Assembly (NCBI GenBank): GCA_951406725.2
Contig: OX597824.1
Span: 50,902,001 to 50,966,000 of the forward strand
DNA: 64,000 nucleotides
DNA from: Octopus vulgaris
Taxonomy: Eukaryota
Direction: 5' to 3'
The notes beneath the pieces were generated by a model. The model had not been told where the DNA came from. It searched no databases and saw only the letters and a program-made list of their open reading frames with translations. The position numbers were made by a program, and so were the translations under genes. How positions within the stretch are numbered: position 1 is the first letter of the stretch; the number at the start of each line of letters is the position of its first letter. Shown here piece after piece: positions 10,669 to 52,914 of this stretch.

Positions 10669-10856
10669 AGAGTTTACGAAAAAAACAAAAGACGAAGACA
10701 GGTGGTTATAAAACAAACAGATGTATTAGTATAACGCTCAGGAATAGAAAAAAGTATTTTACGTTTCGAACCTACGCTCTTCTACAGAAAGGGACACAGA
10801 AAAAAATAAGGAGAGAAAAAATGTGTGTAGTGGCTAACTATCTATCAAGGGGACTC

Positions 10857-10858
<2 letters not shown>
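10666..10858 (-). mobile_element. ~200 bp HHR-bearing repeat (PLE terminal-repeat-like) in a (TA)n array
   Basis: Reverse complement of 19523-19730; HHR-like motif at 10756-10791; (TA)n on both sides. Confidence 0.7.
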
Positions 10859-10914
<56 letters not shown>

Positions 10915-10939
10915 ATGTATATATATAAATAAAATAAAA

Positions 10940-11228
10940 TAAAAATGCACACACGTTATATAGTTTTGATATATTTTTTCAATATATTTTATATAGTGTT
11001 TGTCGACCGATTTCGCTTTCGCTAATCATGACATTGAAATTATTATAATTTCGTATTTACTTAAGAAGATTTTAGTTCATTTTATGTGCGGAGTTCATGA
11101 ATTAATGATTAAACAAGTAGAAAAATCTAAGGGGAGGTAATTGGTGGTCGTTATTATTGGGGAAAGGGGAGGTAATTGTTCATCTTTCGGGGAAGGGATA
11201 AATATACACAGAAACTCAAAAGCTAAAG
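10940..11228 (-). mobile_element. Solo 3' terminal repeat of the PLE family at 49.6-52.8 kb
   Basis: Aligns by eye with 49633-49905 (tgtttgtcgacc...ctaatcatgacattgaaat...tctaaggggaggtaattgg...tcatctttcgggga). Confidence 0.8.
11001..11033 (-). ncRNA. Minimal type-I hammerhead ribozyme, A3-U8 core variant
   Basis: Reverse complement reads TGTC ATGATTA GC-GAAA-GC GAAA TCGG TC GACA. Confidence 0.6.
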
Positions 11229-13989: not shown

Positions 13990-15875
13990 AATTAACAAAG
14001 TAGCACCAACAATCATAAAATTCATAGAGCACTCTATGAATAAATGGCAAACAGTCCTACACCTCCAAACAAAAGAGGGACTCATGAAAACCAAAGACAT
14101 CCCCATTAGAAGAGGAATATTCTAGGGAGAAACGCTCTCTCCACTCCTTTTCTGCTTGACACTGTCACCTCTATCTGATATACTAAATAGAACTGGATGC
14201 GGATATAAATGTTACGGCAAAACGATCAGCCACCTTTTATATATGGATGACCTAAAACTATACGCTGCAAATGACAAACAGCTGGAAACACTATTAAAGA
14301 CAGTTCATGGATTTACCAAAGAAATAGATATGAAATTTGGATTAGAAAAATGCGCCAAAGTAACCATGAAAAGAGGAAAACTAGTTAAGAGTAGCAACAT
14401 CACACTAGATAAAACCAATGAAATAAAAGAATTAGACCAAAGCCAAACTTACAAATACTTAGGAATCCATGAACTAGATAAGACACAACACACACAAATG
14501 AAAGAGAAAATAAAAAAGAATATTATAGACGAGTTAGATCAATACTAAAAACAGAGCTCAATGCTAAAAACAAGATAATAGGTATTAACACTTTAGCTGT
14601 CCCAGTTATAAGTTACAGCTACAATATCCTTAACTGGACACGAAATGAACTGACCAAAATAGATAGGAAAACAAGAAAAATAATGACAGGATCTAGGATG
14701 CATCACCCAAAATCTGACATAGAAAGACGATATATACAACGTATAGAAGGTGGTAGAGGCTTTATACAGCTAGAAAACTACTATAAAATAACCACCATAG
14801 GACTGCAAAAATATCTACTTCAGAAGGAAGGAAAACTGATACAAATAGCGGCAAAACACGAGCAAAACAAAAAACTGTTCTCAGTATTTAAGGAAGCTGA
14901 CAAATACAAACAAGAAATCATACCACCTAATAAATATTAAGAAGAAGAAGATGAAGATGAAGAAACAACAAAAGCTATAAAACAAATGAAATCCAAACTA
15001 AAAATAGAACGATGGCAAGAAAAGCCCCTTCACGGTAAATACTGGACTAAACTAAACGCAAAAGAAATAGACAAAGAAAAATCCCAGCAATGGTTGAGAA
15101 GCTCAGGACTCAAAGCAGAGACAGAGGGATTTTTAATTGCAGCACAAGACCAAAGCCTCCCCACCAGAAATTACCAAAAACATGTAATGAAAAGAAATAT
15201 TACAAGTAACTGCAGAATATGTGGAGATGGAGAAGAAACAATAAATCATATTATCTCTAGCTGCCCAGTCCTGGCTAAGAAGGAATATATTCACAGACAT
15301 GACAGAGTTGGAACCTACATACATTGGAAGCTATGCCAACATTATGGAATAACAACAGAAAAAAGATGGTATAGGCACACACCAGAAAAGGTCACAGAAA
15401 ACGAGAAAGCAACCATACTCTGGGATATGCCGATACACACAGATAGAGAAATTAAGGCCAACAGACCAGATATAGTTGTCAGAGATCATGAAGAAAAAAA
15501 TGCTTTCTAATTGATGTATCAATACCGGCAGATGACAACGTGTCTCTAAAAGAAATGGAGAAACTCTCAAAATACAAAGACCTGGAAATAGAGGTAACTA
15601 GAATGTGGAATCTAAAAACAGAAACAATTCCTATCATAGTAGGTGCATTAGGCATGATAAAAAATATTCAGACAAATACATAACAAAAGCACCAGGACTT
15701 ACAAACACATATAACATACAGAAAATTGCACTACTAGGCACTGCACACATCCTACGCAGAACACTTTCCATACAATAACCATCAGAGCATCACAACAAAT
15801 CACAGCACATACCCAAGGCACACAGAGCTGCGCTCGGTAGTGAAGTGAAAGCACGCTATAAAAATAAAACTACTG
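13990..15875 (+). mobile_element. 5'-truncated R4/Dong-like non-LTR retrotransposon (RT, CCHC, RLE), pseudogenised, copy 1
   Basis: RT motif YMDDLKLY, GGRG thumb region, CRICGDGEETINHIISSC knuckle, RHD, RPDIVV endonuclease, 3' UTR ending in (TAA)n; has stops and frameshifts. Confidence 0.95.
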
Positions 15876-15898
15876 AATAATTATAATAATAATAATAA

Positions 15899-16444
15899 AT
15901 GCCCTGATGTAGTACCAGGCAGTGGCTCTCATGGCTTCTGATCTTAACTGATTGGAAGTACATTGTTTTGTCTTGGTATAAAAGAAGGGCTACAACAAAT
16001 ATTCTGCTCAATACTACAGATTTGCTTGTCAGTTGTTTGACCTTAACCAGTTGAGCATGTCCCTTAGTGGCTGACGATATGTGCATCTCTGATCACGAGC
16101 AGAAGTAGTGGAGGAGCATCATAGCTATGTGTTGAGAGGGATTCTTTGGGGTTTGAATAATTCACCTCTGGAAACATGGGTGGTTCTTTCAATATCCTTA
16201 AACAACCCTTATTCAGGGACCTTTTGAGCGGGATGGGCTACTCAACATGAAGAAAATTTTAACTGGGCCCCACCTGCAAGGTCATGCGCTGTTTATCTTG
16301 ATATGAGATCACCATGTCGCGCACATATGGTTGTGATGCATGTGCCTGGTGTACCCTTATCAGACGGGTAGTCATGATGGGTATATTGGGTTTCGTATAT
16401 TTTACCCCAGTGTCACTTTGATGGCATGAACTGCTCTCTCACTC
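15899..16444 (+). mobile_element. ~550 bp TAA-flanked non-coding repeat (element X), copy A
   Basis: Closely similar to 22608-23162 and 25321-25800; partial minus copy at 45591-45733; ends ctctctcactc-(AAT)n. Confidence 0.85.
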
Positions 16445-17163
<719 letters not shown>

Positions 17164-22386: not shown

Positions 22387-22605
<219 letters not shown>

Positions 22606-22607
22606 GT

Positions 22608-23162
22608 TGCCCTGATGCAGTACCAGACAGTGGCTCTCATGGCTTCTGATCTTAACTGATTGGAAGTGTTATCATGTACATTGTTTTGTCTTGGTATAAA
22701 AGATGGGCTACTGCAAATATTCTGCTCAATACCACAGATTTGCTTGTCAGTTGTTAGACCTTAACCAGTTGACCATGTCCCTTAGTGGCTGACGATATGT
22801 GCATCTCTGATCACGAGCAGAAGTAATGGGGGAGCACAATAACCGTGTGTTGAAAGGAATTCTTGGAGGTTTGGATAAGTCACCTTTGGAAACATGAGTG
22901 GTTCGTTCAACATCCTTAAACAATCCTTATTCAGAGACCTTTTGAGCGGGATGAGCTACTCGACTAGAAAAACATTCTAACTAGGCCCCCACCTGCAAGG
23001 TCATGCGCTGTTTATCTTCATATGAGACACCATGTTGCGCACATTTGGTTGTGATACATGTACTTGGTATACCCTTATCAGACGGGTAGTCATGATGGGT
23101 ATACTGGGCTTCGTATATTTCACCCCAGTGTCACTTTGATGTCATGCACTGCTCTCTCACTC
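22608..23162 (+). mobile_element. Element X, copy B
   Basis: Same 5' start (tgccctgatgcagtaccag) and 3' end as copy A; (TAA)n on both sides. Confidence 0.85.
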
Positions 23163-25883
<2,721 letters not shown>

Positions 25884-26436
25884 TAATAAAGTAAAGATGA
25901 AATAAATAGTGTGTGTGTTAATTGGCCGACTGACCGTCCCGAAATATGGCAATTGTCTAAGATATTTTTCGATCTGAAGCTATGGTAGGAACACCCGCTC
26001 AAGAAACTGCGCAGTGAGATAGAATCATATAGTTAAGACGCAAACTTCAAAACTATACCTGGACTGTATACTGCAATGGCATCTTCGCTGTGTGGTTAAC
26101 TTCAGCCCAGTTAAGTAGTCTAAGAGGGCAGTAATTCCGAGTAAGAACTGAGATAAAATACAACCTCTCTAGAACTAGAAATCTCAAAGGATCCGCATCA
26201 CAAACTACCTGCTTATCAATAACTAGCATGAAGTAGACCTTGTAGTGCTGGCCAGAAAATAAAATGTATATATTACAACTGCAAAGTTGATGATAGGAAG
26301 GGCTATCAGTTGATGAAATAATACAACAAATGAAAAATATATGGACGAGACGTAAACATTGCTAGCTGCATCGCAGACTATCTTCATAAAAGGGCAGTAA
26401 CTCTGAATAAAAACTGGTAGTGTTTAGTAGGGTTTC

Positions 26437-30204: not shown

Positions 30205-31246
<1,042 letters not shown>

Positions 31247-31329
31247 ACTCAAAAGAGTTGTCTCCCCTTACTCACAACACAGGAACTGAAGAACCAGAAC
31301 CACAATTACTACTACTTCCTGTCCTGCAA

Positions 31330-31700
31330 ACATGCTGAATTAAACAACACAACACATGCTCTTAATCCCTTTGGATCTTAACACCTCAAGGTAATTTTTT
31401 CGTGAACAACCATAAAACTCAAGATACACAACGAACTCACAATGTATCGGAGAACTTATTTTTTAATTTTTGTACATTTTTATCATTATTCTTTTACAAA
31501 AAACAATGCAATTTTCTTTTTTTCCCCTTTCTAATTTTTAAAAAAACTTTTTAAAACATAAATATTCTTGACAAGTCATACAATGACGAAAACCGGTTGA
31601 ATAAATATATATTTATATATTTTATCAATTTCTCATTTTATTAAAATTTTCTTTCATTTGAGCATTCTGCATTTAAAAAAAAATTTTTCCTTACTTATCA
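31330..31700 (+). mobile_element. PLE 3' end remnant with HHR
   Basis: Frameshifted IKQHNT..LNPFG-LNTSR* resembles the WIxxLxTxxPxGLN end of PLE GIY-YIG proteins; an HHR follows. Confidence 0.55.
31563..31603 (+). ncRNA. Type-I hammerhead ribozyme, U3-A8 core variant
   Basis: TATTC TTGACAA GTCAT-ACA-ATGAC GAAA (A)CCGG TT GAATA; one extra A in stem III. Confidence 0.6.
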
Positions 31701-31740
31701 TTTCTCCACGTGCGGTCAACACAACCCCACCATTTATTGA

Positions 31741-31812
<72 letters not shown>

Positions 31813-49581: not shown

Positions 49582-51188
49582 CATATATGTCTATATAAAT
49601 AATGCAAAAAATATAAATATAAGATAAAAGAAGGAAAATGCACACACTTTACATAGTTTTAATATATTTCATACTGTGTTTGTCGACCAGTGTCTCTTTC
49701 GCTAATCATGACATTGAAATTGGAATTTTGTATTTTAAGATTTTGTTCCAAGTCGTTTGTGGAGGGGTTTATGAATGAATGATTCGACAAGTAAAAAAAA
49801 TCTAAGGGGAGGTAATTGGTGATCGTTATTATTAGGACCAGGGGAGGTAATTGTTCATCTTTCGGGGAGGGGATAAATATATATACACAAAAATTTAAAA
49901 GCTGAAGTAGTGAGATGAAATATGTACAGTGATGGGTATGTGATCATGAATTAAAATATTTATGAGATCAAAGTTGGTTATGCGTTTATATTTAGACGTG
50001 TTCTGTAGTTTTCGATGAACAAATTTTCGTTATTTAAACGTTCTTGTACAGAAATTGTTCCCGTTCACTAGTAGATGGGGAAAACTGTTAAGTTTGGTTG
50101 GATATTACCTGCACGTTTTCTATGTGTTCATTCAAAGGAATCTGTCTGTATTGTGGGAACCGGATCTGTTCGTTATGTAGTGTGGTTCTCCGTCTCAGTG
50201 TCATACTTGTCTATCCTATATAATGATGTCCACAATCTGAGCAAGTTATAACATAAATTAGATTCTCGGAAGCACAAGTGAAGTTGGTTTTAATTTGAAC
50301 GTCTCTCCTTGTTTGAAAAGGAATTCCGAAACTTCCAGTACGTTGAGGCATGTTCCACAGTTTGGACGTCCACATTTTTAACCGTTGGTTTCGTGGTTGT
50401 GTAAAGCTTGTTAGAAGTCTTTTTAGCGATTTGTGTTGCGTTTTGCATTTGATGAATTTATGTTTTTAGAATGTTGTTCATTTTAGGATCTCTAGTGAGC
50501 ATAGGTAGATTTTGTACAATAGTGTTTTACGCCTAATTGTTTTTAGGGTTGTGAGTTGACTGAGTTGATATACACAGTAGTGTTTTTACGATGAGTTGTC
50601 ATGTTATGTATTGTCACCCTTAATGTTTTAATGTCTAATTTCTTAGCACACTTAATTCCATCGTCTAAAAGTGAGGGCGGATATTATCTTTCAGTTAGTG
50701 CTGTTCTGAGGTCTTGAAGATAAAGGTCCCGCGTATTTCTCTCAGACACTATTGTGTAAATCCTTTTTGCTGAATTAAAGGGGATATTTCTTTTGATGTG
50801 TTTCGGGTGGCATGAGCTAAACAGGAGATATTGCCTCAAGTCCGTTGGTTTATGATAAATGTCAGTTATAATTTGGTTGTTGACATTTTTTTAATCATAA
50901 TATCCAAGAAAGGGAGCTCTTCTTTGCTATATTCCATTGTGAATTGAATGTTAGGATTTATATTATTTAGTATAGATTTGAATTCCAAAAGTTTATCAAT
51001 GGTCTCCTTCCAAATGATAAGCAGTCATCCAAGTATCTTTTCCAGTTCTCTCTTAAATAATGGTGAGATGGATATCCACTTCATACATATTGTGAATTTA
51101 AAATAATTCATTATTTGGTTTGCAAGAACATCGCTGCGTTCGTTCCCATCATAATTCCGCACTTTTGACGATAGTAGGTGTCATCAAA

Positions 51189-51978
51189 TCTCTCTATATA
51201 TAAACGGCAGTTTGTCTGTCTGTGTGTCTGTCAGGTTGTACCCTCACCCTGACCACGGCTTTCAACCGATTCTGATGAAACTTGACACACACATAGCCCA
51301 ATGTCATAATTCAAAACTAACGCAGCGAAAATTTTGAAAAGTTCTCCCAGTTCTGAAAAAAAATCGATAAATTCGACATGGGTCGAGAATCTAAGCTTTT
51401 TATATGCAACACATTTTCTACAGACTGTCTAGGGGACGCAACTCGACCTTTTTAACTTTCGGAACACGTGGGGTAAGTATCCCAAAATGTATAAAAATGT
51501 ACAAAAACGGCAAAAAAGCGGGCAGCAATGTGAGTGACAACAACGAAAAAGTTAAAAGTGACCAAACTGAACAAACGAATGGATAAGGTTTTTTGGTGCA
51601 CACGACAAAAGTGGTTTATAATAAACCAAGAGTTTGCAAGTAGCATCCGAGGATCCTTAGGGTACGTCAAAATTTTAAGGTAAAACGTTTGGGGTGGTAG
51701 TTATAAAGAAAGTGTAAACAAAAAAAGTATTCGAATAACTTGCGGCTGCAGCAGCTATTAGCAGAAGTGGGGGTAAAGTCTCGAATGTAATTTCTTCCTG
51801 GTAGGAATTGGTTGGGTTGAATTATCGATAGCTGTTTGATAGTTATTTGGGAGTGAAGAGAAGACATTGCAACCTACACATGCGCCTTCGTTCCCTAGAG
51901 GGAAAGGACTAGATTAGGATTAGTCGTTGCCTACTAGGGGCTCTTAAATACCCGGGCAACGCCGGGCTATGATGCTAG
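51189..51978 (+). mobile_element. Complete non-autonomous Helitron inserted in the PLE RT
   Basis: 5' A|TC; 3' hairpin CCCGG-gcaacg-CCGGG then CTAG|T; no TSD. Removing it restores NNYFLFDDTYY. Confidence 0.92.
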
Positions 51979-52702
51979 TAGGAAATAATTGTTCTGAAGT
52001 ATAAATTTTAAAGATTCAACAATAAAGACCTGGTTTATGCGTTCCGGAGGCACTTCGGGATACTTTTCCAATCAGAATTTTATTGCTTCTATTCCATAGT
52101 CATGTGGGATGTTGGTGTAAAGATTGATAACATCGAAGAAAACCAATAATGCCTCTTCATTAATTGTTTTTGGTAGGTGCTGTAGCATGTCTAAATCGTC
52201 TCTAATGAAACTTTTGATCTATTTCAGCAAGGGTTTCAGTAGGATATCTAGAAAATAGGTGAGGTGGTGGGTTTCATAGGCTATAATAGGCCTTAACTTT
52301 AAGTCTTCTGGCGCTTAAATATTTATGTATTTGCCCGGTGATTGTTTGCAGGCTTCATAACTACCTTGCTCTTGTGTATTTTAGGTAGGCACTAAAAAGG
52401 ACTTTGATCTCAGTATATATTTTGATTCATGATCACATACCCACTACTGTACATATTTCATCTTACTATTTTAGCTTTTGAGTTTTTGTGTATATTTATT
52501 TATCTCCTCCCCGAAACATGAACAATTATATTTCCCTGTCTCAAATAATAACGTTTACCAATTATCTCCCATGTCTCCAATAATAACGATCACCGATTTT
52601 CTCCCCTTTGATTTTCTACTTCTTGAATCAATTCTTCATAAATTCCACACACAACATAGACTAAAATCTTCTTAACAAAATACGAAATTACAATAATTAC
52701 AA

Positions 52703-52735
52703 TGTCATGATTAGCGAAAGCGAAACTGGTCGACA
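52703..52735 (+). ncRNA. Minimal hammerhead ribozyme, A3-U8 variant (PLE inverted terminal repeat)
   Basis: TGTC ATGATTA GC-GAAA-GC GAAA CTGG TC GACA; a decayed sister copy is at 49681-49713 (-). Confidence 0.65.
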
Positions 52736-52809
52736 AACACAAAATGAAATATATTAAAAAGTACATATTAAAACTATGTAAATTGTGTGAATTTTGCTTT
52801 TTATTATAT

Positions 52810-52914
<105 letters not shown>

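What the first reader, a model, noticed from the sequence alone, without database searches (positions are those of the whole stretch)
52703..52735. PLE family with a compensatory A3-U8 hammerhead core, fixed in three copies
Seen: three copies of one PLE terminal repeat (11001-11033 -, 49681-49713 -, 52703-52735 +) give the consensus TGTC-ATGATTA-GCGAAAGC-GAAA-(T/C)(C/T)GG-TC-GACA; the 49681 copy has extra decay. This is a 33-nt type-I HHR with stem I TGTC/GACA, a GNRA-capped stem II and a GUC site, but the core is AUGAUUA instead of CUGAUGA. Known: C3 and G8 form a Watson-Crick pair in the active fold, and PLEs carry minimal HHRs with palindromic stem III. Inference: C3A plus G8U is compensatory, shared by all copies, and would be missed by CUGANGA motif searches. 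TCGG and CTGG point to an ancestral CCGG palindrome for dimeric cleavage.
Basis: partly seen in the sequence, partly recalled or inferred. Interest (0 to 1): 0.85.

Follow-up and report, generated by a model that had tools for sequence, protein, structure and literature searches.

The report
Penelope hammerhead with A-U core pair
Decayed copies of a Penelope-like jumping gene carry a hammerhead RNA motif whose central C-G pair is replaced by A-U, and related families in the same genome keep this pair matched in all four possible ways, so it likely was a working self-cutting RNA that standard motif searches miss, although cutting is untested.

Summary
All three copies read AUGAUUA in a minimal type-I hammerhead, 3' of a broken Penelope-like RT/GIY-YIG gene. 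The three copies are only two insertions of an old family, so their agreement is inheritance. Compensation shows between families. A3-U8 is the norm in this family (89 of 105 otherwise intact copies, none C3-G8), in a younger sister family (99 of the first 100 of 442) and in a third clade with different stems. Related families carry U3-A8 or G3-C8, and the protein tree needs repeated double swaps. In one fixed context, 72 of 86 copies are A3-U8 and 8 are G3-C8. An unrelated metagenome element also has A3-U8. An intact copy is predicted to fold as a hammerhead dimer; the window's CpG-decayed copies are not. Cleavage is untested, and one published screen rescued only G3-C8. Natural U3-A8 is published; I found no natural A3-U8 in print, but could not read the closest paper (Lunse 2017). 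This scan earlier noted A3-U8 in a phage and G3-C8 or U3-A8 in other Penelope elements. Verdict: new variant of a known kind.

The parts
52703..52735 (+). Minimal type-I hammerhead motif: stem I 52703-52706/52732-52735, A3 at 52707, U8 at 52712, 2-bp stem II 52714-52721, GAAA 52722-52725, decayed palindrome CTGG, predicted cut after C 52731
   Evidence: Sequence; numbering by analogy to Cervera 2014
52401..52810 (+). Inverted, 5'-truncated copy of the element's 3' end, carrying the 52703 motif and running into (TA)n
   Evidence: 47 of 350 aligned bases differ from the main copy
49600..51189 (-). Main Penelope-like element body: end of RT, GIY-YIG region (frameshifted) and 3' terminal repeat
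   Evidence: blastn to family copies at 74-82% and tblastn to the L138 protein
49681..49713 (-). Hammerhead motif of the main copy: A3 at 49709, U8 at 49704; stem II and GAAA strand damaged
51190..51978 (.). Unrelated insertion splitting the RT region
   Evidence: Gap in blastn and tblastn matches, sequence
51979..52400 (-). RT-coding part of the same element, up to the inversion junction
   Evidence: tblastn 80% identity, E 2e-48 to the L138 protein; blastn 79-89%
10856..11228 (-). Second insertion: short 3'-end fragment of the same family, ending in microsatellite
11001..11033 (-). Hammerhead motif of the second insertion: A3 at 11029, U8 at 11024, palindrome decayed to TCGG

Best explanation
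The motif is the minimal hammerhead of an old Penelope-like retroelement family in which the core C3-G8 pair is replaced by A3-U8, and in the active element it likely self-cleaved as a dimer, while the copies in this window are decayed and predicted to misfold. Shown: anatomy, position 3' of an RT/GIY-YIG gene, family-wide A3-U8, and covariation at 3:8 and in stem I between families. Inferred: two motif copies, from two terminal repeats of one transcript or from two RNAs, would pair through their ACCGGU palindromes so that stems I and III form between copies. The A3-U8 pair would position nucleotide 8 as C3-G8 does, G12 would act as general base (recalled, not from a call), and the cut would fall after GUC (52731). 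It may need the element's own protein as a helper, as reported for a lizard element. Selection appears to keep the pairing, not the letters.
For: Family A: 89 of 105 otherwise intact copies are A3-U8; the 16 others differ at one position only; none is C3-G8. Family B: 442 copies, 99 of the first 100 A3-U8, with stem I changed in a compensatory way from TGTC/GACA to TATC/GATA and with N7 and loop 2 changed. Clade C keeps A3-U8 with stems AACG/CGTT, AGCG/CGCT, AGCA/TGCT. Genome-wide CCGG-type motifs by base 3 (matches; control; partner among the first 100 listed, hand counts): U 6178; 51; A8 95. A 1498; 83; U8 88. G 248; 51; C8 51. C 238; 25; G8 58. In one fixed 30-nt context, 72 of 86 are A3-U8, 8 G3-C8, 6 unmatched. 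All 38 stem-defined groups from the fetched loci have a Watson-Crick 3:8 majority, against a shuffle mean of 15.1 and maximum of 27. The tree needs at least two U-A/A-U switches and rejects one A3-U8 clade (p-AU 0.0024); G3-C8 (L349) lies inside clade C. A distant metagenome element has A3-U8 (L272) and another has G3-C8 (L292). For an intact copy (L008) the hammerhead dimer is the minimum-energy homodimer, -14.9 kcal/mol. PLE hammerheads cleave as dimers (Cervera 2014), and a 3:8 swap partly rescues a PLE hammerhead (PMC11167929).
Against: No cleavage or RNA-end data. In a complete double-mutant screen of a type-III hammerhead only G3-C8 rescued; all other double mutants there were low (PMC9901934 passage). 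Stem II has only 2 bp. For a family B copy (L094) the hammerhead dimer lies 1.6 kcal/mol above the best fold, and for the window's copies 7-12 above it. Unpaired or wobble states also reach several copies: C3.A8 in 11 of the first 100 C3 rows, a tandem-repeat subfamily, and U3.G8 in 5 of 100 U3 rows. No A3-U8 copy with a full intact gene or with two terminal repeats around a gene was found (L073 and L369 lack a gene between their repeats); the youngest relatives, about 99% identical, use U3-A8. The 38 groups are not independent and the loci were partly chosen by A3-U8 patterns. The lizard PLE did not need cleavage for insertion in vitro.
Confidence: 0.72

Rival explanations
1. The hammerhead fold, including the 3:8 pair, is kept as a structure that the element's protein recognises (template end or dimerisation signal), and A3-U8 cores cleave too slowly to matter.
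For: Catalytic mutants of the lizard PLE hammerhead did not affect insertion in vitro and no RNA-seq reads ended at the cut site (PMC11167929 passages). Minimal PLE hammerheads cleave weakly in vitro. A3-U8 was not among the rescues in the screen. Naiad elements thrive without canonical hammerheads.
Against: The catalytic letters (U4, G5, A6, A9, G12, A13, A14, A15.1-U16.1) and the H17 rule stay fixed while H varies between C, U and A across families. The 3:8 pair is a feature of the active fold. Fungal and plant PLE hammerheads are canonical, and a fungal one cleaves fast.
Confidence: 0.18
2. A3 and U8 are two unrelated damaging mutations that hitch-hiked in one founder copy; the ribozyme was dead while the family spread.
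For: The family is old (median pairwise identity 78%), so within-family fixation says nothing about selection. A C3.A8 mismatch subfamily shows that unpaired cores can be amplified.
Against: A3-U8 occurs in at least two separate clades of this genome and in an unrelated element (L272). Stems keep covarying on A3-U8 backgrounds. Every family-level state seen in PLE bodies but one small wobble subfamily is Watson-Crick.
Confidence: 0.06
3. The register is different: C at 52706 is C3, followed by an inserted A, and G8 is simply lost.
For: A C does precede the A in families A and B.
Against: That C pairs with G1.1 in stem I, and in clade C the same position is G or A with the matching partner C or U. 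Base 3 and base 8 change together.
Confidence: 0.02

Closest known systems
Minimal hammerheads of metazoan Penelope-like elements, including the U3-A8 variant of Schistosoma Cercyon elements (Cervera and De la Pena 2014, PMC4209133)
   Same: Type-I topology, 4-bp stem I, G10.1-C11.1, palindromic stem III, position 3' of the PLE gene, mostly single truncated copies and close inverted pairs, covariation at 3:8
   Different: Purine 3 / pyrimidine 8 (A3-U8, and G3-C8 in relatives): none of the 56 motifs in their Fig. S3 has either. Stem II is 2 bp rather than 6-8, with no extra base between 9 and 10.1.
Natural U3-A8 hammerhead cores (Perreault et al. 2011, PMC3088659)
   Same: Natural compensatory change of the C3-G8 tertiary pair
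   Different: The passages read report only U3-A8 in nature; here all four Watson-Crick pairs occur in one genome
Small PLE-associated hammerhead variants that cleave as dimers (Lunse, Weinberg, Breaker 2017, PMC5785218)
   Same: By its title (reference list): small PLE-linked variants, dimer cleavage
   Different: Not held, so whether A3-U8 is among its variants is unknown; this is the main novelty risk
PAc hammerhead of the Anolis Poseidon element (PMC11167929)
   Same: PLE hammerhead in which the 3:8 pair, not the letters, supports activity (C3G/G8C partly rescues)
   Different: There the swap is engineered and the natural core is C3-G8; this element has a Neptune/Nematis-type linker
EN+ Penelope-like elements with a CX2-5CxxC linker (Neptune/Nematis type; Craig et al. 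2021, PMC8557442)
   Same: RT then C-terminal GIY-YIG, Cys linker, inverted 5'-truncated copy, insertion in (TA)n
   Different: Clade not tested against named reference elements

Membership tests
Minimal PLE hammerhead (type I) | Watson-Crick pair between positions 3 and 8 | tested here: met
   A3-U8 in 89 of 105 family copies; covaries between families
Canonical hammerhead core (CUGANGA) | Letters C3 and G8 | tested here: not met
   0 of 105 copies C3-G8; no Rfam match. Hence filed as a variant, not as canonical.
Minimal PLE hammerhead (type I) | Remaining core letters U4 G5 A6 A9, G12 A13 A14, A15.1-U16.1, H17 | tested here: met
   Present at 52703 and 11001; A14 damaged at 49681
Minimal PLE hammerhead (type I) | Stem I, supported by covariation | tested here: met
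   TGTC/GACA, TATC/GATA, AACG/CGTT, AGCG/CGCT, AGCA/TGCT
Minimal PLE hammerhead (type I) | Stem II opening with G10.1-C11.1 | tested here: met
   GC/GC, only 2 bp, shorter than the 6-8 bp described, and without the usual extra base after A9
Minimal PLE hammerhead (type I) | Palindromic 15.2-16.2 region allowing a dimer | tested here: met
   CCGG in 80 of 93 copies; hammerhead dimer is the best fold for L008 but not for the window copies or L094
Minimal PLE hammerhead (type I) | Self-cleavage as a dimer | not testable with these tools
   Needs a bench assay
EN+ Penelope-like element | One gene with RT and C-terminal GIY-YIG | tested here: met
   L138 (family B): RVT_1 E 1e-6 and GIY-YIG E 2e-6; family A pieces weaker, below Pfam cut-offs; remnants in the window
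EN+ Penelope-like element | Motif in both terminal repeats around the gene | tested here: inconclusive
   Seen for sister family E (L126) and outside element L239; no such full copy found for A3-U8 families
EN+ Penelope-like element | Inverted 5'-truncated copy at the 5' end; microsatellite targets | tested here: met
   52401-52810 inverted on the main body; ends in (TA)n/(CA)n
Neptune/Nematis clade | CX2-5CxxC linker and RT phylogeny | tested here: inconclusive
   Linker present (definition); no named reference elements in the trees
Non-LTR retrozyme | Short head-to-tail tandem repeats without a gene | tested here: not met
   Copies are dispersed and continue into RT/EN sequence

The most novel reading that the evidence does not exclude
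In this animal's Penelope-like elements the hammerhead's catalytic-core pair has flipped repeatedly among all four Watson-Crick pairs, with canonical C3-G8 the minority. A3-U8 and G3-C8 would be the first family-scale natural purine-3 cores, working because a helper (dimer plus the element's protein) demands pairing but not identity. Hammerhead censuses and statements that some Penelope clades lack hammerheads, which rest on CUGANGA, would then be large undercounts.
Probability: 0.4. Interest if true: 0.72.

Novelty: new variant of a known kind. Interest (0 to 1): 0.55.

Why it matters
The C3-G8 pair was a surprise of the active hammerhead structure, and in vitro swaps disagree on whether A3-U8 works. 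More than a thousand natural A3-U8 copies in several independently derived families, beside U3-A8, G3-C8 and C3-G8 relatives, are an evolutionary test of that contact. Two natural versions that differ only at positions 3 and 8 make it directly testable. It also bears on the open question of what PLE hammerheads are for: repeated double swaps imply strong selection on the active fold. Practically, search descriptors should allow any pair at 3:8; among CCGG-type motifs here, matches starting with C3 are about 3% of the total (238 of 8162).

Tried and rejected
Rfam: no hammerhead among the 150 best of 286 window matches listed and 0 matches around the motif. Single-strand folding gave no support for a monomer hammerhead (z -0.55 to -1.3 for the window copies), as expected for this kind. 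Two direct-repeat pairs tested as full-length elements had no gene between them (L073, L369). C3-G8 hits in L092 and L131 first looked like sister-family cores but belong to other inserted elements; L131's own motif is U3-A8. L329 was labelled G3-C8 in the tree, but its own core is G3-U8 and its branch is long, so only L349 is used. A second fixed-context pattern matched nothing. The strict filter dropped the window's three copies and this genome's G3-C8 copies. Literature searches that found no natural A3-U8. Not held: Lunse 2017, Przybilski and Hammann 2007, Nelson and Uhlenbeck 2008, Martick and Scott 2006, Arkhipova 2017, Scott 2013 and two further survey papers tried by recalled id. One of two supplement files of Cervera 2014 could not be searched, and the numeric data of the eLife screen were not seen.

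Full report
Observation. Each reads TGTC-ATGATTA-GCGAAAGC-GAAA-YYGG-TC-GACA; the 49681 copy has two more changes. The 23-mer occurs 110 times in the window's genome (2.8 Gb, 227 contigs) against 0 for the reversed control. Rfam gives nothing there.

What surrounds it. The 49681 copy ends a minus-strand element body at 49600-51189 and 51979-52400, split by an unrelated insertion; it matches an RT/GIY-YIG protein by tblastn. At 52400/52401 the sequence flips into an inverted copy of the 3' end that carries the 52703 motif. This is the arrangement described for Penelope-like elements (Craig 2021, passages). The window therefore has two insertions. The two halves of the larger one differ at 47 of 350 aligned bases, and 30 family copies have a median pairwise identity of 78%: the family is old. 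Pfam finds RVT_1 and GIY-YIG in a 635-residue frame of the sister family and weaker pieces in this family. The linker has the CX2-5CxxC form.

Is A3-U8 the family state? With stems II and III fixed and positions 3, 7 and 8 free, 105 copies match: 89 A3-U8, 4 A3 with another base 8, 12 with another base 3 but still U8, none C3-G8 (hand counts). CCGG is in 80 of the 93 A3 copies. This shows the master's state but not selection, since dead copies inherit it.

Is it compensatory? A protein search of the genome gave sister families. Family B, younger (median 88%, best hits 95%), has 442 motif copies; 99 of the first 100 listed are A3-U8, with stem I changed on both sides, N7 changed and loop 2 no longer GNRA. 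Clade C, about 58% identical in protein, has A3-U8 with three other stem-I pairings and other palindromes. Families D, E and F have U3-A8. The tree of the C-terminal 250 residues is (D,(C,((E,F),(A,B)))) (61 rows). On 26 rows A3-U8 needs two changes in every bootstrap tree, and one A3-U8 clade is rejected (p-AU 0.0024; the group was defined by the RNA trait, but after I had seen the tree). G3-C8 copies exist too and sit inside clade C (L349). Genome-wide, CCGG-type motifs number 6178 with U3, 1498 with A3, 248 with G3 and 238 with C3 (controls 51, 83, 51, 25). Among the first 100 listed of each, the Watson-Crick partner is at position 8 in 95, 88, 51 and 58 (hand counts; many of the rest look like single mutants or shifted registers of the large families). 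In one context with all other letters fixed or two-fold, 72 of 86 copies are A3-U8, 8 G3-C8 and 6 unmatched; this counts as one swap, not eight. Among 97 loci from other organisms, a descriptor with free 3:8 found 28 hits against 1.7 in shuffles: 21 C-G, 3 U-A, 1 A-U (L272), 1 G-C (L292), and 2 unpaired, both on the antisense strand. Collapsing 165 strict hits from all loci into 38 groups by their stems gave a Watson-Crick majority in 38 of 38 (shuffle mean 15.1, maximum 27); the groups are related and partly chosen by pattern, so this is descriptive. Against strictness: a tandem-repeat subfamily has C3.A8 (11 of 100 rows), and U3.G8 occurs (5 of 100).

How it would work. As a monomer the motif does not fold as a hammerhead. 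For an intact copy (L008) the best homodimer is exactly the double hammerhead, with stems I and III formed between molecules (-14.9 kcal/mol). For a family B copy it is 1.6 above the best fold, and for the window's copies 7-12 above. Cervera 2014 (main text parts 1-2 of 4 and supplement parts 1-2 of 3 read) found such motifs inactive as monomers and weakly active as dimers. The Anolis PLE hammerhead cleaves only with its protein, is partly rescued by a G3-C8 swap, and is not needed for insertion in vitro (PMC11167929, passages). I therefore infer dimeric, possibly protein-assisted cleavage after GUC in the once-active element, and inert copies here. Against it, a full double-mutant screen of a type-III hammerhead rescued only G3-C8 (PMC9901934, passages). 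I recall, without having seen the paper, that Przybilski and Hammann 2007 found all four pairs cleavage-competent with a context-dependent preference for pyrimidine 3; Perreault 2011 cites it for activity of covarying cores (passages). No RNA evidence was obtained.

Novelty. Natural U3-A8 is published (Perreault 2011; Cervera 2014). None of the 56 motifs in Cervera's alignment has A3-U8 or G3-C8, and nine searches found no natural A3-U8. Lunse 2017, the closest study, and several older papers are not held, so absence from print is not established. Other papers seen: Weinberg 2019 (passages), Cervera 2020 (passages), PMC3884650 (passages), PMC10085705 (passages and one section), a 2026 retrozyme preprint (first part). 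Earlier notes of this scan report A3-U8 in one phage hammerhead and G3-C8 or U3-A8 in other PLEs; I did not test them.

Verdict. A real feature, correctly read, and better supported than the window alone could show: a new core variant of a known kind of ribozyme, embedded in a clade that samples all four pairs. Chemistry and role are those already proposed for PLE hammerheads, and cleavage is untested. Interest 0.55.

Noticed in passing
window 31564-31602 (+), within 31245-31789: A fourth hammerhead in the window, with a U3-A8 core, in a 3' fragment 95% identical to the young intact family E; a short partly inverted piece lies at 30659-30867.
   Followed up: partly
L135, L180, L186, L196 (3' of the gene): Many clade C copies read GUAAA instead of GAAA, an extra or changed base in the second core strand on top of A3-U8.
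   Followed up: no
G000:C1:20002278-20004542 (L341-L347) and similar arrays: A tandem repeat of about 360 bp with a C3-G8 hammerhead in each unit, retrozyme-like; a subfamily has an unpaired C3.A8 core, e.g. G000:C4:80857199-80857949.
   Followed up: no
L208; five rows: U3.G8 wobble cores, including a small subfamily of family D, a possible intermediate between pair types.
   Followed up: no
L135, L137, L350-L367, just 5' of the hammerhead: A conserved short hairpin (ACACCG...CGGTGT) precedes the clade C hammerhead.
   Followed up: no
L292:113-155 and 204-2633: A metagenome PLE with an 810-residue open frame and a G3-C8 hammerhead upstream of it; a good intact test case.
   Followed up: partly
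L222-L238: PLE genes lie on contigs of bacterial genome assemblies, probably host DNA binned with symbionts.
   Followed up: no
window 14048-16534 and 22488-25889: A 87-97% identical duplicated region of about 2.5 kb, and several other dispersed repeat families across the window.
   Followed up: no
L078:4156-5034 (-): A caspase-domain frame between two duplicated blocks that each hold two family A motifs.
   Followed up: no
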